DNA of 64,000 bases. It comes from Escherichia coli phage vB_EcoS_Ace. Both the position numbers and the translations under genes were made by a program. How positions within the stretch are numbered: the first letter of the stretch is position 1; each line of letters opens with the position of its first letter. The stretch is from the sequence record MT833283.1. The stretch is one strand, 5' to 3'. Under the pieces are notes generated by a model, which was not told where the DNA came from, did not search any database, and saw only the letters and a list, made by a program, of their open reading frames with translations. Positions 4,384-14,644 of this stretch are shown here, one piece after another.

Positions 4384-4635
4384 TTATGCGATAGCTTGCC
4401 ATTTATCATCTTTCTGAATGATTTTTACAACGTCGCCAGATTTAACACGGACGTTATAAATAGGCTTGCCGTGGTTACTGCGTTCCGTTTCCGCATAGAC
4501 CGCTTCAATCTTATCAAAGGGATCAAGCGCCGCACCTTTAATACGTTCGGCTTTTCCGGTTAATTCATCCGTTTTAGTTACAAAAGGAATGAATACAGAT
4601 TGACCTACTTTCGGCGCGGTAATAACGTTTTGCAT
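4384..4635 (-). CDS. hypothetical protein (83 aa)
   Basis: ORF in track, minus strand, pre-early region. Confidence 0.45.
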   Translation of the reverse strand: MQNVITAPKVGQSVFIPFVTKTDELTGKAERIKGAALDPFDKIEAVYAETERSNHGKPIYNVRVKSGDVVKIIQKDDKWQAIA

Positions 4636-4767
4636 TTTTAATACTCCGGTTTATTGGGGATTATTCCACAATAGCGCCTCGATACTTTGAAACGCTATTA
4701 GATTATAATCCGCTAGGAGTTAGCCTAAACATTACCGTTATCCAAATTGTTAAAGAGCAGTTACTAT

Positions 4768-4790
4768 GGGGAACATCTTAAAACCTATCG
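4768..4790. repeat. inverted repeat arm (GGGAACATCTTAAAACCTATCGG)
   Basis: 22/23 match to reverse complement of 5051-5073. Confidence 0.6.
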
Positions 4791-4799
4791 GCTAGCGTG

Positions 4800-5018
4800 T
4801 CAAGCGTTTTTTAAACTTTTTTCGATTTGATGTGAGTTATATAAATCAATCATTATATTACGCCACACCATTTCCAGACCTTGCTGCTTACCTTTCTTGT
4901 ATTGCTTGAATCTGTATTTTACAGATCTTTGCGCTACTGTCAACAAATTTTTTGTTCTGCTATCCAGTGGGCTAGCAGGTTTTGCACTAATCACTAAAGC
5001 GTTTTTTGATTTGATCAT
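4800..5018 (-). CDS. small basic protein (72 aa), flanked by 23-bp inverted repeats
   Basis: ORF in track; Lys/Arg-rich; bracketed by IR 4768-4790 / 5051-5073. Confidence 0.4.
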   Translation of the reverse strand: MIKSKNALVISAKPASPLDSRTKNLLTVAQRSVKYRFKQYKKGKQQGLEMVWRNIMIDLYNSHQIEKSLKNA

Positions 5019-5050
5019 TATCGTCGATTCCTTATAATATCTAAGTTTAC

Positions 5051-5073
5051 CGCCGATAGGCTTTAAGATGTTC
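5051..5073. repeat. inverted repeat arm (CCGATAGGCTTTAAGATGTTCCC)
   Basis: partner of 4768-4790; the two arms bracket ORF 4800..5018. Confidence 0.6.
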
Positions 5074-5770
5074 CCTAATTTTTAAAGAGCATGGCAGGGT
5101 TTTGAAAGGTCAAACAGACTGTCAATCGCTGTTATCCCCGCCGTGTAGTTCGTCATTGCCGCCCTACGTGATAAATAATAGGAGAATACCGAGAAGGGCG
5201 CAAGCGTATTTTTGTAAAGAAACGTAAAGAAAACCACTACTCGCAAACTTCCAGCGGCGCATTAAATTTAATGAAACGGGCGCGCGAATAACACCAAAAC
5301 AACCATTTTAGCAAGTAATTTTTTCATTTATATCTGCTCTAGGGTACTTGACAAAATCTAAAATCCTCGTGGTGAGGTTTTCTCGGTGTACCCCTTATGA
5401 TTGCCTATCTTTTCCTTTGAGGCGCTTAGAATGCGTTACAGAGCGTTTTAGACCCTGTTAATAACTTATACAAAAAGCAAAAATGAAATTTAATGAGTTA
5501 TCCACTTGATTTTTCAAAAAAGTATTTTCTGCTGTTATTTTTCATTGACAAATAAGTCTGGACGTGCATCAGAGCATTAGCAGACTAATAATCGCTAGGA
5601 TGATAATCACGCTGGTGGATTGTAACAGCCGAAACAGTTAGTAGACTATTAATACTCTAAAAATCTATTAGCCAACTAACTATTTCATAATATATAATAT
5701 ACACATAAATTAATGAGAAATAATAACTATGAGAAACTATCGGGCTAAGTGAGAACCACTATCATTTAGG

Positions 5771-5840
5771 TTATGCACAAAGCTATCCACAGCACAAAAT
5801 AACTTGACGCAATAGGCGACGTTTTGGCGACTTATCCACA
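5771..5840. promoter_or_regulatory. cluster of DnaA-box-like 9-mers (TTATGCACA, CTATCCACA, TTATCCACA)
   Basis: three matches to TTATNCACA within 70 bp; further copies at 9460-9468 and 9521-9529. Confidence 0.5.
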
Positions 5841-5880
5841 GACTTATATACAGGTTATCCTACTGTATAAATATACAGGG
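5831..5880. repeat. left arm of ~50-bp inverted repeat carrying DnaA box TTATCCACA and LexA-box-like palindrome CTGT-N8-ACAG
   Basis: about 45/50 identity to reverse complement of 9421-9470. Confidence 0.7.
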
Positions 5881-6127
5881 TAGAATGGTAGCAGTAACAA
5901 CCGCAATCAAATTTAAGCGGCCTAGAACGCGCTACACGGCGTTTTCTCACTGCTACCCTTATTATAATAAAGCCTTGTGTACGCTTACAGAGAGCTAGAA
6001 ATAGAAAACGCGCGATTATCATAAAAATGGGCAGTAGGCAAGGAATAAAAAACCTTTTCTTTTTTCTTGCCCCTAGCGAACAATTATCTATATCATTCAC
6101 TCACCGATTAACGAGGGAGACAAAGAA

Positions 6128-7129
6128 ATGTCTACTGTAAGAATTGCAGTACCAGCAAACGCCACTATTATTAAGGGTAGTTTGCGCAACCTGATAGACG
6201 GATCAAGTCCAGCAAGCCTACAACATACGGCGGCAATGGTTGAAAAGATTCACTATGATATTTTAGATAATAATGATACTCATTATTCAGTCGATGATTT
6301 CACGCTATTACTAGACCAGACAAGGGCGCTAGTAATTTTCAACCGTGATTATCATATTTTCCGTAATAGTCGTGGAACTGATATTGATTTTATCATTGTT
6401 GGCTATAGTGAGTCTCATAGTGGTTACATTGCGCGATTATATAACGTGCAAGAAAAGGAGCAGGTAACAGCAACAAAAGTAAATAATATCCTGCTGGATA
6501 GTGTCGGATCGTTATTAAATAGTATCTGGCGTGAATTATCATCCAGTTATAAAGGTGCGGATAGTGACGCAATCGAAACAACTGGCGTATTGTGTTTTGA
6601 ACGCGCTAGCGGTAACATGTTGATTCCTAACGATTATTTAGAGAATGGGAATGAATCAAACGTTGTAAATGCTGGATTTACACTTTTACCGCTTGACATT
6701 GTAACAAAACAGGCTGTACAATCTCAAACTTCAAGCGCAAATGCGCAAACTACTGAAAATAAAGGAAATATTATGTCTAAAGTATCTTCTATCGTTGCCG
6801 CTAATAAATCCGCCGTTGTAAACGCTGCTAAACTGGAAGCAGGTAAAATTGCACTGACTCAAATCACAAAAGTAGCGGCGAAAAAAGCGCCGTTTATTAT
6901 CAAGGGTTATATTGATACGCCTATCGGTCGGGTAGTTATTGCTAACCTGCTGAGTGTAGCAGTTGACCAGTACGCCCCGAATAACGCGAAAGCAAAAGCG
7001 GTAGCAGGCGCGGCAATGGAAGCGGCAATGCTAGAAATGGTACAATCTTTTAACATCGCTGAAATGATCGACGAAATGGTAAAAGGTATTGACATTTCCA
7101 CCTTTACCCAAAACGCTGAAAGCGAATAA
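6128..7129 (+). CDS. hypothetical protein (333 aa), Ala-rich C-terminus
   Basis: ORF in track; GAGGGAG Shine-Dalgarno 6 nt upstream of ATG; first gene of the plus-strand block. Confidence 0.6.
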   Translation: MSTVRIAVPANATIIKGSLRNLIDGSSPASLQHTAAMVEKIHYDILDNNDTHYSVDDFTLLLDQTRALVIFNRDYHIFRNSRGTDIDFIIVGYSESHSGYIARLYNVQEKEQVTATKVNNILLDSVGSLLNSIWRELSSSYKGADSDAIETTGVLCFERASGNMLIPNDYLENGNESNVVNAGFTLLPLDIVTKQAVQSQTSSANAQTTENKGNIMSKVSSIVAANKSAVVNAAKLEAGKIALTQITKVAAKKAPFIIKGYIDTPIGRVVIANLLSVAVDQYAPNNAKAKAVAGAAMEAAMLEMVQSFNIAEMIDEMVKGIDISTFTQNAESE

Positions 7130-7183
7130 TAATATTTAGCGGGGATTATTTCCCCGCTTTCCCTTTTAGTTAGGAGACTAATT

Positions 7184-7678
7184 ATGTCGGAAGAAAAATA
7201 TGGCTTTTCGCTAGAAAGTGTGAGTGAAGCTAAACACGATATGATCGTTTTAGTTGATTGTCACACTGGCTATTGTGGAGAAAGGAACACTGAGGAACAT
7301 TTTGTTCCCGCTGGATGTGATCTGGACGCGTTCACACATGAAATGGCTATTGATAATGCTTCTAGTTTCGGTAGTGATGGCTATGAAGATGAAGAAACAG
7401 GGGAATGGATTGAAAATGATAATGTATATGCGAGTCTTTATCATTATCAATTGAGTAAGTCCGGCACTTATGTAAATGGCGGCGATCCTATTAATACCGT
7501 TATGAAACTAATTATTAAACACGGTGGCGCGGAAATAATTGGTAACAAGGCGTTATTATATGCAAATCGATTAAAACAGCTTGTTTATATTCCTGATAAT
7601 TCCCGTTGGGATGAATATGCCGTTTTACAGAAAGAACTAAAACGCTGTTTCAATATTGAAGCATTAGAAATAGTCTAA
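7184..7678 (+). CDS. acidic hypothetical protein (164 aa)
   Basis: ORF in track; AGGAG upstream; followed by hairpin plus T-run terminator at 7694-7720. Confidence 0.6.
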   Translation: MSEEKYGFSLESVSEAKHDMIVLVDCHTGYCGERNTEEHFVPAGCDLDAFTHEMAIDNASSFGSDGYEDEETGEWIENDNVYASLYHYQLSKSGTYVNGGDPINTVMKLIIKHGGAEIIGNKALLYANRLKQLVYIPDNSRWDEYAVLQKELKRCFNIEALEIV

Positions 7679-7693
7679 TGTAAAGTCTTGTAA

Positions 7694-7720
7694 AGGTCGC
7701 CTATGTTGGCGGCCTTTTTT
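7694..7720 (+). terminator. rho-independent terminator
   Basis: 8-bp GC-rich stem (AGGTCGCC/GGCGGCCT) followed by T6. Confidence 0.6.
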
Positions 7721-7786
7721 GTTATAATGCCTTTACACCGAAACGGTGGATTGAAAATTTTTCCCTGATTTCTAGGAGGCGTTAAA

Positions 7787-8014
7787 ATGGTATATTCATC
7801 ATCTTCTGCAATTTTTAACGGTATGGAATGGGTATCCGTTCCCGCTATTGTCAGCGTTATGGTTTCTGAATTTGGGATTGGTAAAACTTATGTTACCATT
7901 CAGGGGCTTTACGACAATGACAAGATTGATCAGCAAACCGCCGGATTTTTGCTGGATGAATTGAAAGCTAACCATTGCACTAAAAAGCAAGCGGCAAAAA
8001 TTGTTTTAATGTAA
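7787..8014 (+). CDS. hypothetical protein (75 aa)
   Basis: ORF in track; AGGAGG upstream of ATG. Confidence 0.5.
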   Translation: MVYSSSSAIFNGMEWVSVPAIVSVMVSEFGIGKTYVTIQGLYDNDKIDQQTAGFLLDELKANHCTKKQAAKIVLM

Positions 8015-8212
8015 TTATTAAAGGGGATATATTATCCCCTAATTTCTAGGAGCTAATAAAATGGTTATTTTTCGATCTATTCTGGCTAGTATCTTGGGCG
8101 CTATTTTATCGCTGTTTGTAATAGCTTTCGGCGTTCACGTGGTTATTATTGGAGCAGGTATCGCGGGGTTTTCTTACTTGTTAGGCTGTATGACTGGTAA
8201 AGGGGAATAAAA

Positions 8213-8425
8213 ATGTTAAAAAATGTAAGCCTTGCCCGTTCAAAAGGTTTTAAGCTGGTGGATGTTAACACGTTTGAGCGTACAGATTGTAAAATCGAAT
8301 ATGTACCGCGTAACAAAAACGCTTTCCGTGTTACAGAAAAGAAATTTGACAAGCGCGGAAATTTGGTAGCCGAAACGGTTAAACACTTTGCCACCTTTTA
8401 CGCTGCGTTTCGGGGAGTGTTATAA
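8213..8425 (+). CDS. hypothetical protein (70 aa)
   Basis: ORF in track; stop 1 nt before next ATG. Confidence 0.5.
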   Translation: MLKNVSLARSKGFKLVDVNTFERTDCKIEYVPRNKNAFRVTEKKFDKRGNLVAETVKHFATFYAAFRGVL

Positions 8426-8426
8426 A

Positions 8427-8771
8427 ATGGTAATTTACGAGGGCAATCGCTTTGTAACTAATTGCCGTCCGGCATTATTAGCAAACTATTTAAATCAGCT
8501 TTCACCAGTTTATAAAGGCGTGGTTAATATCTATGAGGGCAAAGCACATTATAAAATTTCTGCCGTTGTCGCCCGTGAACTAGCGTTTCAATTTTTAACT
8601 TTTGGGTCTTGTGACGTTCAGGTTATGGGGGAAGCGTTAATAGCGGAAAATGAAAATGAATTTATTGACATTTTCCGCAAAGTATGTACAGAGCGCCTGA
8701 TTATGAAAGGCGCGTATATTCAATCAACCGCTGAAAGTATCGAAACAGCGTTTCGAAAGGTGGCGCAATGA
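8427..8771 (+). CDS. hypothetical protein (114 aa)
   Basis: in-frame ATG at 8427 immediately after upstream stop; track ORF 8388..8771 trimmed to this ATG. Confidence 0.5.
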   Translation: MVIYEGNRFVTNCRPALLANYLNQLSPVYKGVVNIYEGKAHYKISAVVARELAFQFLTFGSCDVQVMGEALIAENENEFIDIFRKVCTERLIMKGAYIQSTAESIETAFRKVAQ

Positions 8772-9079
8772 CTAGAAATGAAGCTGTTAAAGCTATGTTA
8801 GAAGGTAAAAAAGTAACTCATCGTTATTTTTCCATGCATGAATATTTATTCATGAAATATGAAGTGATCACCACGGAGGATGGTTATAAATTTAATCATG
8901 AATTTTATAGCCGTGAAATGTTTAATGATGGCTGGTAGCTTTATTATGAATAGCTGGTGGCGAAAAACACAAAGCCATAAATCTAATAATACCGCTGGGA
9001 AACATTCCCAGCGTTTACGATTTGGTAATGGCTTCACAATGATATTGATAATCATTCTCATTCTAGGAGCAATGGCGTT

Positions 9080-9274
9080 ATGAGTGATAAAATTGTTGTA
9101 ACTAAAACTACTGTTACCGTTGATACTTTCTTTGTGCCTGATACGCTGGAAAATCGGCAAGCGGTGGAGCGTGGCGATTATGATAAAGTGATTTATGATA
9201 ACGATGGTTACTATCAACATTTGGTAGACTCCTACGGCGAAAGCGAAAAGATCACACATCGACTACCAGACTAA
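9080..9274 (+). CDS. hypothetical protein (64 aa)
   Basis: ORF in track; last gene of the plus-strand block, followed by terminator 9280-9308. Confidence 0.45.
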   Translation: MSDKIVVTKTTVTVDTFFVPDTLENRQAVERGDYDKVIYDNDGYYQHLVDSYGESEKITHRLPD

Positions 9275-9279
9275 TAATA

Positions 9280-9308
9280 ACGGGGCGCAACTATCGGCCC
9301 CGTCTTTT
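9280..9308 (+). terminator. rho-independent terminator closing the plus-strand block
   Basis: stem ACGGGGC/GCCCCGT followed by CTTTT. Confidence 0.6.
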
Positions 9309-9420
9309 CTGGCCTTCCTCAAATTTCCCCTTATTAAAATACCTCCCCCAAAAATAAACGCGTTCTAACGCGTTTGAGAGCGTTTTAGAGCTATATTAGA
9401 GTTATTCACTACGCAGGAAT

Positions 9421-9470
9421 ACTGTATAAATATACAGTAGAATAACCTGTTGATAAGTCTGTGGATAACG
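9421..9470. repeat. right arm of ~50-bp inverted repeat (TACTGTATAAATATACAGTA plus DnaA box TGTGGATAA)
   Basis: reverse complement matches 5831-5880. Confidence 0.7.
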
Positions 9471-9554
9471 CCTCAAAATCACTAGGATTTTGTCAAGTCA
9501 GATCGTGCTGTTAATAAACCTGTGGATAACTTAAATAACAGTGTTTCTCACTTC

Positions 9555-9700
9555 GCTTTGTAAATGCGAGTCATTCTCATTATCATTAGCGTTTCCCTTC
9601 CTAAATGCAAATCATTCTCATTCGTATTCCGGTAGTCAAATGATAACTGTTCTCATTCGCATTCAACTTCTCAAATGCGAATCATTCTCATTATCATTCG
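9555..9700. repeat. three direct copies of ~25-bp motif AAATGCRARTCATTCTCATT(ATCATT)
   Basis: copies near 9563, 9603 and 9672 plus a partial copy near 9640. Confidence 0.6.
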
Positions 9701-9735
9701 CATTTCGGCAGGCAGGGCAATTTGCCCTGCGCTTT

Positions 9736-10476
9736 TGTGCAAATCCGACATTTGCCCCCACGGATTACGTGCCAGTGTGCATGTGCGAATCCGACAATTT
9801 TTGGTAGTGTGCAAATCCGATGGGAAATATTTTTTATATGTGCGAATCCGACAATGAATTTTCCTAAAAACTCCAGCAATCCACAACTGCGATGCAATCC
9901 AGCTGGATTTACTAGAATATGTGCAAATACGACAAGTGTTAAGGTGTGCAAAACCGACAAGATTTTTGTGACTTCGATGAGAGGGTGTATGATTGTGTGA
10001 GTTTGGGGAGAAGTGCGAATCCGACGAGGTTTTTGGGAGGAACTATGGAGGGTGCAGCTGTGGTGGTGCTTCAGCACCGGTTTGCTGCGTTTTTGGGGAT
10101 AATGTGGGATGTTTTGGCTAGAATTGAGATTAGTGGAGATAAAGCGAAATTTTATTAGCAAAATGGGGCAAAATCGCTTGACAAGTGAAAATTCCTGTGG
10201 CTCTAAAAACTCAGGCAAATACGGGCCTTCGGCCCGAAATAATGCTGCTATTTTCAGTGTTCCTAAAAACTTTGGAGACTCCTATCAATGTGCAAATCCG
10301 ACCATAAATTTCTAGAAACATAGTGTGCAAATCCGACAGTAAAATCCAGAAATGTGTTTTGGAAAAATGTTGTCTAGAAATAACCGCCCTCCCCATAACC
10401 GCCCTGTATTAAACCGCCTATTGCTGGAGTTTCTAGGAACAGGAGAAACTGCCCTATAACATGGGCAAATACGACA
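9736..10476. repeat. iteron-like array, about 10 same-orientation copies of 15-bp motif TGTGCRAATCCGACA
   Basis: copies start near 9736, 9782, 9808, 9839, 9920, 9945, 10012, 10289, 10324, 10463; irregular spacing; interleaved TTCCTAAAAAC/TCTAGAAA motifs and three AACCGCC repeats at 10381-10420. Confidence 0.65.
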
Positions 10477-10813
10477 GGGTTTTCCTAGAAACTTAGGAGT
10501 CTACTAGAAAGTGTTGTGCCATCCTAGGAAGAGTGGCGGCAACAAGTGTATCATCTTGAATGTGAATTATGTGGTCAAAAGTTTTACCTTTAATTTAAGT
10601 ATAAGATCCCCAAGGATTGTGAGAGATGCTCCACCCCTGGGATACGAATTGCGTGAGATGGTACAAAACTTCTGAAGATTTCCCTAGCCCTCCGACGAGC
10701 TACGGGGGAAATAGAAGTTTCCCATCCACCATCCGTATCCGGGTGGATCTCTTTATTCTATGTTATTTCATAGAGTTATTATAACATGCAGAAATCATAA
10801 CGTCAAGTAGAGT

Positions 10814-11704
10814 TTATTCATCGAACATGAGGTTTCCTTTCATCCCCATCTCCGCATACTCCATGAGTTCTCCTAGGGATCTCACAGGGTAATCTACTTT
10901 ACTGAAGTTATCATAGATCTTACATGAACTCTCGTACAACTCGTTAGGTATCTGCAATTTGTTATCAGTTAGCTTCTCATAACGTGTAGAAGATTTTGTA
11001 CCTTCAAACAGAACTGCAATAACTGCGGCGATTTGTTTGGTAAGATCATCTGCTCCTAGAATTATTCTATTAATAGCAATCGTTACTTCATGCTTAGGTT
11101 TCACAGGTGGAAGGATAGGCTTGAGATCCTTAGGTAAAGGTTCTGTTCCTAGGAATCCTTCTTTTGTGCGGAACCAATAATTATCTAGATCAGATATTGT
11201 CTTAGACTTATTCCATATAGTGAAGCAAGGTTTATTTCCTTCACGATCTCTGTATTCACGAACTGGAAGATAATGATCAGGGAATGAGTTGAGTGCATCA
11301 TGCATTGGTGAGCCTGTCTTTTTAAATGACAAACCGTACAACTCATTATAATTCATAACTTCATCTTCATAAACATGGAAATCTTTATATGCTGGAAGAT
11401 TAAACCATTCCTGAAGTGAATGAACTGCAAAACGTTGTGCCCAAGCATGCATCACAAGAACTCTGTACTCTTTTACTTCATCTTTTGGAGAAGTACCTCT
11501 AACTGTTCTAGCTGACCGAATACAGAACATCTCAACAACACGTTTCTCGTTTAAAGAAAGCTCAGAGTAACAACGTTCATGGCAACCTTCTAGCATTTCT
11601 AGAAGTTCACATAGTTTCTCTACATCGACCGGTGGAAAAGGTCTCTCTTCCACCGCGAATTTACCAACTACACCTTTCGGCTTTCTATTACTATAAAATC
11701 CCAT
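10814..11704 (-). CDS. hypothetical protein (296 aa)
   Basis: ORF in track; stop/start overlap with next gene on same strand. Confidence 0.55.
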   Translation of the reverse strand: MGFYSNRKPKGVVGKFAVEERPFPPVDVEKLCELLEMLEGCHERCYSELSLNEKRVVEMFCIRSARTVRGTSPKDEVKEYRVLVMHAWAQRFAVHSLQEWFNLPAYKDFHVYEDEVMNYNELYGLSFKKTGSPMHDALNSFPDHYLPVREYRDREGNKPCFTIWNKSKTISDLDNYWFRTKEGFLGTEPLPKDLKPILPPVKPKHEVTIAINRIILGADDLTKQIAAVIAVLFEGTKSSTRYEKLTDNKLQIPNELYESSCKIYDNFSKVDYPVRSLGELMEYAEMGMKGNLMFDE

Positions 11705-14409: not shown

Positions 14410-14644
14410 CTTTCAGGATATCCTCGATTAGGTCAGAAGATTGCTGGATTTCGTCGATAATACGTTTAACATTAGTCTTAGTGATCTTACCTGCAATCAT
14501 CGTGAGAACTAATGCAACGATAAGAACCGGAACTGGAATAATAAACAGTGCTACTTTCGCAACGTTCTTAATAGACCAAGTGTGGTACTTTTGAACCAGA
14601 ACCGCAGTAACAACAAGGTACATCGCTAGGAGGAACATAATCAT
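14399..14644 (-). CDS. membrane protein (81 aa)
   Basis: ORF in track; two hydrophobic segments. Confidence 0.5.
   Translation of the reverse strand: MIMFLLAMYLVVTAVLVQKYHTWSIKNVAKVALFIIPVPVLIVALVLTMIAGKITKTNVKRIIDEIQQSSDLIEDILKDEA

What the first reader, a model, noticed from the sequence alone, without database searches (positions are those of the whole stretch)
5831..9470. Plus-strand gene block bracketed by 50-bp inverted repeats that each carry a DnaA box and a near-consensus LexA box
The only plus-strand coding block in the first 57 kb (6128-9274, at least 6 genes, with its own terminators) is flanked by inverted copies of a ~50-bp element (5831-5880 and 9421-9470, about 45/50 identical). 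Each copy contains TTATCCACA and the 20-mer TACTGTATAAATATACAG(TA/GG), which fits the E. coli SOS-box pattern CTGT-N8-ACAG. The left copy overlaps a possible promoter (TAGAAT -10 at 5881-5886) 250 bp upstream of the first gene. This geometry fits either an SOS-repressed cassette in a virulent phage or a segment that has inverted or can invert between the repeats. The block encodes uncharacterised proteins, including an acidic 164-aa protein.
Basis: partly seen in the sequence, partly recalled or inferred. Interest (0 to 1): 0.75.

Follow-up and report, generated by a model that had tools for sequence, protein, structure and literature searches.

The report
LexA/DnaA-box repeats bracketing T5-like pre-early cassette
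Two mirror-image repeats already known from the first-injected DNA of phage T5 each end in a near-perfect binding site for LexA, the host's DNA-damage repressor; the site is kept across the whole phage family, and the gene block between the repeats has been flipped at least twice in evolution.

Summary
The window is the left terminal repeat of an EPS7/T5-like phage. The repeats (full extent 5744-5878 and 9422-9556) are the orthologues of T5's published IRC-spacer-IRD / IRD'-spacer-IRC' inverted repeats. Their DnaA boxes are already described and have been proposed as part of the injection-stop signal.

I found two points in no paper.
1. The 20-mer at the inner edge of each arm (T5's annotated "palindrome D") is a consensus LexA operator. 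The right copy scores better than 30 E. coli SOS boxes. It is conserved in every Demerecviridae lineage examined, from E. coli to Vibrio phages. The identical 20-mer sits 20-40 bp upstream of DinI-family genes in P2-like prophages.
2. The cassette between the arms (T5 genes 011-017) lies in reversed order and orientation in Sugarland-like and My1-like phages. These do not form a clade, so at least two inversions occurred. No orientation polymorphism exists among 537 records that carry the repeat.

The SOS-repressed-cassette reading is not supported. The proposed TAGAAT is not conserved. The validated promoter P11 lies about 190 bp downstream of the left box and fires in ordinary infections. 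Most likely the arms are orientation-independent docking sites for host DnaA and LexA. LexA binding is inferred, not shown.

The parts
5744..5878 (+). Left (A2-side) inverted-repeat arm, the orthologue of T5 'IRC-spacer-IRD' (Repeat Region 2)
   Evidence: the repeat finder pair I1. T5 annotates inverted repeats C and D at 6022-6152. Described in bioRxiv 10.1101/866236.
9422..9556 (-). Right (injection-stop side) inverted-repeat arm, the orthologue of T5 'IRD'-spacer-IRC'' (Repeat Region 3)
   Evidence: blastn finds it in 536 phage records, 90% identical to T5 9312-9464, which is annotated IR D'/C'.
5861..5880 (.). Left LexA-operator-like 20-mer, TACTGTATAAATATACAGGG
   Evidence: HI-like index 3.36. 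A box is present at the equivalent place in all 43 surveyed loci, and is degenerate (ACAA) in a few Tequintavirus-type loci.
9420..9439 (.). Right LexA-operator-like 20-mer, TACTGTATAAATATACAGTA (T5 'palindrome D')
   Evidence: HI-like index 0.51. T5 annotates the identical 20-mer as palindrome D at 9330-9349. The injection-stop-side box scores 2.2 or lower in all Tequintavirus- and Epseptimavirus-type loci. It is present in Erwinia and Vibrio phages.
5771..5791 (+). Outer DnaA-box pair of the left arm (TTATGCACA, then 3 bp, then CTATCCACA)
   Evidence: Paired boxes 3 bp apart, as described by Davison.
5832..5852 (+). Inner DnaA-box pair of the left arm (TTATCCACA gac TTATATACA). A third DnaA-like 9-mer, TTATCCTAC (5855-5863), abuts the LexA box.
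   Evidence: plus direct reading of the sequence.
9448..9468 (-). Inner DnaA-box pair of the right arm (TTATCAACA / TTATCCACA)
9509..9529 (-). Outer DnaA-box pair of the right arm (TTATTAACA / TTATCCACA)
   Evidence: (family D15).
6067..6096 (+). Cassette promoter, equivalent to T5 P11 / 'T5P4' (TTGCCC, 18 bp, TATCAT)
   Evidence: Consensus scan. It aligns with the T5 region annotated as promoter T5P4, 6331-6420. T5 P11 transcripts were shown by primer extension (PMC7472727).
6128..7129 (+). Cassette gene 1: 333-aa DUF7566 protein, homologue of T5 gene 011 (toxic, disturbs the nucleoid)
   Evidence: Pfam PF24450, E 3e-138. Homologues on the opposite strand in Sugarland (E 1e-35) and My1. Phenotype from bioRxiv 10.64898/2026.04.02.716235.
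7184..7678 (+). Cassette gene 2: acidic 164-aa protein (phrog_6741), function unknown
   Evidence: Homologues in My1 (My1_018) and Sugarland gp012 are on the opposite strand and in reversed order.
7787..8210 (+). Cassette genes 3 and 4: 75 aa (T5 ORF013 homologue) and 49 aa (T5 ORF014 homologue, hydrophobic)
   Evidence: tblastn against T5. PHROGs 5145 and 5607.
8213..8425 (+). Cassette gene 5: 70 aa, homologue of T5.015, the Ung-dependent nickase of abasic sites
   Evidence: phrog_4227, E 1e-48. 91% identical to T5 ORF015. Function as cited.
8388..9274 (+). Cassette genes 6 to 8: 127 aa (T5 ORF016 homologue), 56 aa, and 64 aa (homologue inverted in My1)
9277..9305 (+). Terminator hairpin at the cassette's 3' end (CGGGGCGCAACTATCGGCCCCG plus a T-run), about 115 bp before the right box
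   Evidence: Sequence read. It aligns with T5's annotated terminator / palindrome C at 9194-9213. A G+C-rich inverted repeat (candidate hairpin, not scored as a terminator) aligns at the same relative place in all five lineages.

Best explanation
The feature is the conserved pair of inverted-repeat arms of the T5-family terminal repeat. Each arm is a composite docking site for host proteins. An array of DnaA boxes on the outside ends, on the inside, in a consensus-strength LexA operator.

The two arms bracket the dispensable accessory pre-early cassette (homologues of T5 genes 011-017). The cassette has its own promoter (P11) and terminator. The arm on the injection-stop side is the universal one.

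I infer that LexA dimers and DnaA occupy the arms as soon as the first-step DNA enters the cell. I infer that they act as orientation-independent 'bookends': a nucleoprotein boundary or pause element next to the injection-stop region. They do not act as a classical operator for the cassette promoter.

Because the arms are inverted copies of each other, recombination between them has flipped the cassette at least twice during family evolution, without harm. This is consistent with a cis function that does not depend on what lies between the arms.

Shown: the anatomy, the conservation, the motif strength, the inversion, and the promoter geometry. Inferred: LexA and DnaA occupancy, and the boundary or pause role.
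For: Identity with the T5 repeats:
- blastn gives 90% identity to the T5 region annotated IR D'/C'.

Strength of the operator:
- HI-like index 0.51 and 3.36, against 0.93-8.96 for 30 E. coli sites. A best score below 4 arose in 0.2% of shuffles.

Family-wide conservation:
- All 43 loci (Tequinta-, Epseptima-, Sugarland-, Myuna- and Novosibvirus) have two boxes flanking the gene-011 homologue.
- Erwinia KEY and four Vibrio phages, whose A1 proteins are only 32-34% identical to the window's, keep the box next to DnaA boxes although the flanks cannot be aligned.
- Proteus phages keep a box scoring 0.93 on the A2 side, where the adjacent flank no longer resembles the DnaA-box arm.

Pattern of variation matches LexA:
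- In 25 distinct boxes, T4 and G5 are invariant (50 of 50 half-sites) and C3 is kept in 47 of 50.
- Per-position information correlates with the E. coli motif, rho 0.89.

Independent context for the same sequence:
- The same 20-mer lies 19-41 bp (229-248 bp in nine cases) from a DinI-family operon (PF06183) next to gene A in 60 of 120 IMG/VR stretches.

A host factor rather than a co-evolving phage factor:
- A2 diverges to 32-43% identity while the site stays fixed.
- The A2 model (pLDDT 84) has a GcrA/Myb-type helix-turn-helix, not a LexA-type winged helix.

Not a classical operator:
- P11 lies about 190 bp away and is active in ordinary infection.
- TAGAAT is not conserved.

Inversion:
- Gene order b1-b2-b8 is reversed on the other strand in My1 and Sugarland.
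- The inner flank of the window's right box is homologous to the inner flank of the left box in Sugarland and My1.
- In the A1 tree, the T5 group plus Sugarland has bootstrap 0.98, and Sugarland plus My1 has 0.0.

Literature:
- Davison links the right arm to the injection-stop signal. He cites a second FST band at about 5.85 kb, near the left arm.
Against: - No binding data exist for LexA or DnaA on these sites.
- Positions 6-9 of each half-site (TATA) are more conserved than LexA alone requires. This could reflect a second factor or a promoter element.
- LexA cleavage cannot be essential. A T5-like phage is recorded with host DH5a, which is recA1 (my own knowledge).
- A T5 mutant deleted from hegG to 017 should, by map position, lack the left arm. 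It is viable, with small plaques. The pair of arms is therefore not essential in the laboratory.
- Two Vibrio phages (JSF12, Rocket24) show only the injection-stop-side box.
- A protein bound inside the cell is not an obvious way to halt DNA entry.
Confidence: 0.6

Rival explanations
1. Classical SOS-repressed cassette. LexA bound at the left box represses a promoter that drives genes 6128-9274. The cassette is then expressed only after LexA is cleaved.
For: - The operator is of consensus strength.
- A promoter-like arrangement can be drawn in each arm, with the -35 in a DnaA box and the -10 (TATAAA / TATATT) inside the LexA box. The scan finds one at 9456-9429 on the minus strand.
- Host DNA degradation by A1 could plausibly trigger LexA cleavage (inference).
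Against: - TAGAAT is not conserved.
- The conserved, annotated promoter lies about 190 bp downstream of the box.
- P11 transcripts appear in ordinary infections.
- The distance from box to first gene varies from 265 bp to more than 650 bp, with intervening ORFs in Sugarland.
- In the window, the better-conserved box is the one at the cassette's 3' end.
Confidence: 0.15
2. The palindrome is the recognition site of a phage protein: A2, the dimeric DNA-binding protein needed for second-step transfer, or an A1-A2 complex that cuts there, as Davison proposed for palindromes in this region. The resemblance to a LexA box is then incidental, or reflects competition with LexA.
For: - A2 is conserved in all lineages and is essential for second-step transfer.
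- Its model has a DNA-binding helix-turn-helix domain.
- The central TATA positions are more conserved than in E. coli SOS boxes.
- Davison lists palD among candidate cleavage sites.
Against: - A2's fold is GcrA/Myb-like, not LexA-like.
- A2 diverges to 32-43% identity while the site stays invariant and stays at the host consensus.
- The variants that do occur (CCAG, CTGG, the central flip AAAT/ATTT, sulA-like TATCCATA) are those tolerated in genuine SOS boxes.
- The identical 20-mer serves DinI-family operons in unrelated prophages.
Confidence: 0.2
3. A programmed invertible switch, like the Mu G segment or Salmonella Hin. The cassette flips at appreciable frequency between the repeats to alternate expression states.
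For: Inverted repeats flank a gene block, and both orientations exist in the family.
Against: - No recombinase family was found in any cassette protein.
- None of 537 phage records carries the predicted inverted junction over at least 80% of the query.
- Orientation is fixed within each genus.
- The cassette carries its own promoter and terminator, so flipping would not switch expression.
Confidence: 0.03
4. The DnaA-box array plus the AT-rich palindrome is an origin-like unwinding element used for replication or for recombination between terminal repeats. LexA plays no part.
For: - Head-to-tail DnaA boxes with a period of 11-12 bp abut an AT-rich core. This is reminiscent of oriC (my own knowledge).
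- Davison also notes the resemblance to oriC.
Against: - Davison reports that T5 origins map near the centre of the genome, and that replication functions lie on the second-step DNA.
- This does not explain why the core matches CTG-N10-CAG so exactly, with an invariant TG.
Confidence: 0.07

Closest known systems
Bacteriophage T5 inverted repeats IRC-spacer-IRD / IRD'-spacer-IRC', with DnaA boxes, in the left terminal repeat (Heusterspreute 1987 and Wang 2005, as cited by Davison; Davison, bioRxiv 10.1101/866236)
   Same: This is the same element by homology (90% identity to T5), position, length (131-135 bp) and paired DnaA boxes. T5 annotates the 20-mer as 'palindrome D'. The cassette corresponds to T5 genes 011-017.
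   Different: The published accounts do not mention LexA, SOS or promoters (0 occurrences). They describe the opposite-strand genes of My1 and Sugarland as a replacement, not as an inversion of homologous genes.
E. coli SOS boxes (LexA operators, CTG-N10-CAG), for example tisAB, umuDC and recA, and the operator upstream of the DinI-family operon in P2/186-like prophages
   Same: Same palindromic consensus. The score is better than umuDC, whose box is described as among the highest predicted affinities (PMC2994835). The identical 20-mer is used upstream of DinI-family genes.
   Different: Here the site does not overlap the promoter of any gene, occurs as an inverted pair 3.5 kb apart, abuts DnaA boxes, and sits in a strictly virulent phage.
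Invertible DNA segments flanked by inverted repeats (Mu G / Gin, P1 C / Cin, Salmonella Hin) (my own knowledge)
   Same: A gene block lies between inverted repeats, and both orientations are found in nature.
   Different: There is no invertase gene and no polymorphism among close relatives. The cassette carries its own promoter. Inversion is a rare evolutionary event, most simply explained by homologous recombination between the arms.
Use of host LexA by mobile elements (GIL01 P1/gp7, PMC4551915; CTXphi, coliphage 186 tum and colicin operons, my own knowledge)
   Same: A mobile element carries high-affinity LexA operators.
   Different: Those are temperate phages or plasmids, in which LexA represses a defined promoter that controls induction or toxin release. 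Here the operator has no adjacent promoter or gene, and the phage is virulent.

Membership tests
T5-type terminal-repeat inverted repeats (IRC-spacer-IRD / IRD'-spacer-IRC') | Sequence homology to the T5 repeats | tested here: met
   Window 9400-9560 is 90.2% identical to T5 9312-9464, annotated IR D'/C'. The sequences were compared directly.
T5-type terminal-repeat inverted repeats (IRC-spacer-IRD / IRD'-spacer-IRC') | Position: one arm between the A2-side operon and gene 011, the other just before the repeat-rich injection-stop region of the terminal repeat | tested here: met
   Order dmp-A1-A2-hdi, then arm, cassette, arm, then DRC/DRD-type repeats.
T5-type terminal-repeat inverted repeats (IRC-spacer-IRD / IRD'-spacer-IRC') | Eight DnaA or DnaA* boxes, in pairs separated by 3 bp, two pairs per arm | tested here: met
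   Boxes at 5771/5783, 5832/5844, 9448/9460 and 9509/9521.
LexA operator (SOS box) | A 16-20 bp palindrome matching CTG-N10-CAG / TACTG(TA)5CAGTA, scoring within the range of validated sites | tested here: met
   HI-like index 0.51 and 3.36, against 0.93-8.96 for 30 recalled E. coli sites. The motif definition is in PMC2994835.
LexA operator (SOS box) | Overlaps or directly follows the promoter of the gene it represses | tested here: not met
   The nearest supported promoter (6067-6096, P11) is about 190 bp away. The right box follows a terminator. TAGAAT is not conserved.
LexA operator (SOS box) | Binds LexA, and the target is induced on LexA cleavage | not testable with these tools
   Needs EMSA, footprinting or ChIP, and expression assays in lexA mutant hosts.
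LexA operator (SOS box) | Evolutionary conservation of the positions that LexA contacts | tested here: met
   T4 and G5 invariant, C3 kept in 47 of 50 half-sites. The information profile correlates with the E. coli motif, rho 0.89. Caveat: the boxes are related by descent.
Site-specific invertible switch (Gin/Hin/Cin type) | Inverted repeats flank the segment | tested here: met
Site-specific invertible switch (Gin/Hin/Cin type) | An invertase (serine or tyrosine recombinase) is encoded in or next to the segment | tested here: not met
   No recombinase family was found in Pfam or PHROG scans of the eight cassette ORFs, A2 and the 83-aa ORF.
Site-specific invertible switch (Gin/Hin/Cin type) | Both orientations occur among clonal or closely related genomes | tested here: not met
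   A chimeric query of the predicted inverted junction was covered at 80% or more in 0 of 537 records. Population-level reads could not be tested.

The most novel reading that the evidence does not exclude
Host LexA, together with DnaA, is a working component of the T5 two-step DNA-transfer checkpoint. Consensus operators at the arms recruit LexA to the first-step DNA beside the stop point. This would make the length of the pause, or the boundary of pre-early transcription, sensitive to the host's SOS state, which the phage itself provokes by degrading host DNA through A1. It would be the first case of a strictly virulent phage using LexA as a structural or timing factor rather than as a lysogeny switch.
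Probability: 0.13. Interest if true: 0.85.

Novelty: new variant of a known kind. Interest (0 to 1): 0.55.

Why it matters
How T5 stops and restarts DNA injection has been an open question for more than fifty years. The only sequence-based proposal so far invokes the DnaA boxes in these repeats.

The most conserved 20 bp of the element is a consensus LexA operator, identical to the one upstream of DinI-family genes in prophages. This adds a second, easily tested host factor. lexA(Def) and lexA(Ind-) hosts, box point mutants and LexA EMSA or ChIP are all standard tools.

It would also extend LexA exploitation from temperate elements to a virulent phage.

The cassette has flipped at least twice while the arms stayed in place. 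This shows that the arms act independently of cassette orientation. It also corrects the published view that My1- and Sugarland-type phages simply replaced the region.

Tried and rejected
1. TAGAAT at 5881 as the -10 of a LexA-controlled promoter. Rejected because it is not conserved in T5, Sugarland or My1.

3. Host-switch test: does the motif change in relatives whose hosts have a different LexA motif? Rhizobium phage RHph_Y2_11 has an A1 gene but no comparable terminal-repeat architecture. All Demerecviridae hosts are Gammaproteobacteria, so the test is not possible.

4. An obligatory 'LexA-cleavage timer' for second-step transfer. Disfavoured because a T5-like phage is recorded with host DH5a, which is recA1 (my own knowledge).

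5. An outward promoter at the cassette's 3' end (9374-9402) that would pull in the remaining DNA across the right box. Rejected as a conserved mechanism, because this inner flank moves to the A2 side in My1 and Sugarland.

6. Rfam scan of 4500-10900 found nothing significant.

7. A third LexA-like site at 14531 lies inside an ORF and is probably chance.

8. Davison 2015 (Bacteriophage 5:e1086500) could not be retrieved. Whether it mentions LexA remains unchecked.

9. The JSS1_004 paper, which mentions both LexA and phage T5, concerns a T7-like phage and is irrelevant.

10. Aeromonas phage Akh-2: the fetched stretch did not include the region upstream of A2, so nothing could be concluded.

Full report
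**What the window is.** Megablast of 5400-9900 finds 530 phage records. The best hits (91-94% identity) are Salmonella/Escherichia EPS7-like phages, at about 5.1-10.2 kb of their genomes. The ORFs to the left are dmp, A1 and A2. The finding therefore lies in the left terminal repeat of a T5-like phage. This is the first-step-transfer (pre-early) DNA.

**Checking the observation.**
- The repeat finder gives one long inverted pair, 5744-5878 and 9422-9556, 135 nt, 75% complementary.
- Each arm carries four DnaA or near-DnaA boxes, in two pairs spaced by 3 bp.
- CTGT-N8-ACAG occurs only twice in 64 kb, both times at the inner edge of an arm.
- I built a heterology-type index from 30 E. coli SOS boxes that I recalled from memory, so the matrix is approximate. 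The right 20-mer, TACTGTATAAATATACAGTA, scores 0.51. That is better than all training sites (tisAB 0.93, umuD 1.02, recA 4.69). The left one scores 3.36.
- In 500 block shuffles of the window, a best score below 4 arose in 0.2%.
- PMC2994835 gives the definition of the box and of the index. It describes umuDC as one of the highest predicted affinities.
- The plus-strand block is real.

**The repeats are already known.**
- GenBank AY587007 (T5) annotates 'inverted repeat C' and 'D' at 6022-6152, and D'/C' at 9332-9462. It annotates the 20-mer as 'palindrome D' at 9330-9349.
- Davison's preprint (10.1101/866236) compares 25 T5-like phages. It describes the 131-bp IRC-spacer-IRD / IRD'-spacer-IRC' pair and its eight paired DnaA boxes. 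It proposes that these boxes, bound to membrane DnaA, form the injection-stop signal.
- That text contains no occurrence of LexA, SOS or promoter.
- Searches combining LexA with phage T5, T5-like, Tequintavirus, Demerecviridae or Epseptimavirus found no paper that makes the link.
- Davison's 2015 review could not be retrieved.

**The LexA operator is conserved across the family.**
- I surveyed 43 loci: the window, T5, Sugarland, My1, a Proteus phage and 38 IMG/VR loci found with an alignment of the 333-aa protein. Every locus has two low-index boxes flanking the gene-011 homologue.
- The box on the injection-stop side scores 2.2 or lower in all Tequintavirus- and Epseptimavirus-type loci. The A2-side box is sometimes degenerate (ACAG changed to ACAA).
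- Proteus phages keep an A2-side box scoring 0.93, although the flank next to it no longer resembles the DnaA-box arm.
- Erwinia phage KEY has the exact 20-mer twice. Four Vibrio phages, with A1 only 32-34% identical, keep CACTGTATAAATATACAGTG-type boxes beside DnaA boxes, in flanks that otherwise cannot be aligned.
- Among 25 distinct boxes, T4 and G5 of every half-site are invariant (50 of 50) and C3 is kept in 47 of 50. The substitutions seen (CCAG/CTGG, the central flip AAAT/ATTT, sulA-like ATCCAT) are those found in genuine SOS boxes. Per-position information correlates with the E. coli motif, rho 0.89. Caveat: the boxes share ancestry.
At least 18 are T5-like. In 60 the 20-mer lies 19-41 bp (229-248 bp in nine cases) from an operon encoding a DinI-family protein (PF06183), next to a P2-type gene A (PF05840). 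The very same sequence therefore sits where a LexA operator is expected in unrelated prophages of the same hosts.

**It is not a classical operator for the cassette.**
- The promoter annotated in T5 (T5P4, 6331-6420) aligns with a conserved TTGCCC/18/TATCAT at window 6067-6096. This is about 190 bp downstream of the left box.
- Promoter P11 was validated by primer extension in ordinary T5 infections (PMC7472727).
- The right box follows the cassette's terminator by about 115 bp and has no gene downstream.
- A weak promoter-like pattern can be drawn inside each arm, with the -35 in a DnaA box and the -10 in the LexA box. It cannot be separated from the conservation of the boxes themselves.

**What the cassette encodes.**
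- The 333-aa protein is DUF7566, the T5 gene 011 homologue.
- The 70-aa ORF is the T5.015 homologue, an Ung-dependent nickase of abasic sites.
- The others match PHROGs of unknown function.
- A 2026 preprint reports that T5 genes 011, 013 and 015 are toxic when expressed alone, and that 011 disturbs the nucleoid. It also reports that a mutant deleted from hegG to 017 is viable with small plaques (10.64898/2026.04.02.716235). By map position that deletion should remove the left arm.

**The cassette has inverted.**
- In the window, T5, Erwinia KEY and Proteus phages, the cassette is divergent from A2.
- In Sugarland-like and My1-like phages it runs the same way as A2.
- This is an inversion of homologous genes, not a replacement. 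Window b1 against Sugarland gp014 gives E 1e-35. The order b1-b2-b8 on the plus strand becomes b8-b2-b1 on the minus strand in My1, and b2-b1 in Sugarland.
- The inner flank next to the window's right box, including the terminator hairpin and a CTCTAATATA...CTAAAACGCTCT motif, is homologous to the inner flank next to the left box of Sugarland and My1.
- In a neighbour-joining tree of A1, the T5 group plus Sugarland has 98% bootstrap support. A Sugarland plus My1 clade has 0%. The outgroups (KEY, Proteus, Vibrio) are divergent from A2. At least two events are therefore needed.
- The short C-terminal domain of b1 gives the same topology but without support. Cassette exchange between lineages is not excluded.
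- A chimeric query of the predicted inverted junction is covered at 80% or more in 0 of 537 records. No recombinase is encoded. This is rare evolutionary inversion, most simply by homologous recombination between the arms. It is not a switch.

**Host factor or phage factor.**
- A2 is the obvious phage candidate for binding the palindrome.
- A2 diverges to 32-43% identity in Vibrio phages while the site remains fixed at the host consensus.
- Both points favour a conserved host protein, but neither excludes A2.
- The extra conservation of the central TATA positions remains unexplained.

**Most likely mechanism.**
- The arms are composite DnaA plus LexA docking sites that bracket the accessory cassette. 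They work in either cassette orientation, and the injection-stop-side arm is the indispensable one.
- I infer that LexA and DnaA load onto the first-step DNA and form a boundary or pause complex next to the stop region. Davison cites a second FST band at about 5.85 kb, near the left arm.
- Cleavage of LexA cannot be obligatory. A T5-like phage is recorded with host DH5a, which is recA1 (my own knowledge).
- Confidence that the anatomy and the evolutionary claims are right is high. Confidence that LexA binds in vivo is about 0.65. Confidence in any particular downstream role is low.

**Novelty.**
- The repeats and their DnaA boxes are already known.
- The LexA-operator identity of 'palindrome D' and its partner, their family-wide conservation, and the recognition that the cassette was inverted rather than replaced at least twice appear in none of the papers I could search.
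- The case is a new variant of known kinds: SOS boxes, and the T5 injection-stop repeats.

Noticed in passing
window 9041-9059, 9566-9590, 9677-9695, 144-168; T5 L001 228-252 and 9574-9633; Sugarland L002 201-225 and 10052: Sequences resembling the Fur box (consensus GATAATGATAATCATTATC, recalled from memory) are enriched in the terminal repeat. There are 5 hits with at most 3 mismatches against 0.06 expected. Twelve of the 17 hits with at most 5 mismatches lie in the first 10 kb. The best hit (2 mismatches) is 20 bp upstream of the 64-aa gene. Others fall in the DRC-type repeats just outside the right arm, and recur there in T5, Sugarland, My1 and KEY, but not in Proteus or Vibrio phages. The stop region may therefore hold sites for a third host regulator.
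   Followed up: partly
L061 5582-6041 and 59 other IMG/VR loci (L060-L167): The exact 20-mer TACTGTATAAATATACAGTA lies 20-40 bp upstream of a small operon that encodes a 60-aa protein and a DinI-family protein. The operon sits beside replication gene A of P2/186-like prophages.
   Followed up: partly
L001 (T5 AY587007) 6417-7426: This T5 record splits the DUF7566 gene into ORF011 and ORF012: tblastn pieces q4-241 and q238-333 lie in different frames. Other T5-like phages, and another T5 copy in IMG/VR, have a single ORF of about 330 aa. This is either a frameshift or a sequencing difference.
   Followed up: no
window 8768-8938: The 56-aa cassette ORF has a weak, sub-threshold match to the Thoeris anti-defence Tad2-like domain (PF11195, E 0.076).
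   Followed up: no
window 14531-14550: A third LexA-like 20-mer, AACTGGAATAATAAACAGTG (index 6.8), lies inside an 81-aa minus-strand ORF. It is probably chance.
   Followed up: partly
window 9735-10340: Eight copies of an 18-mer, ATGTGCGAATCCGACAAT, lie right of the right arm. They correspond to T5 'direct repeat D'. Their function is unknown.
   Followed up: no
window 9345-9400 (and 5905-5945): A conserved motif, CTCTAATATAnCnCTArAACGCTCT, lies 15-45 bp inside the box at the cassette's 3' end in all five lineages aligned, and moves with the cassette on inversion. A related CTAGAACGC motif lies at the 5' end (family D5, 58).
   Followed up: partly
[not shown]
   Followed up: partly
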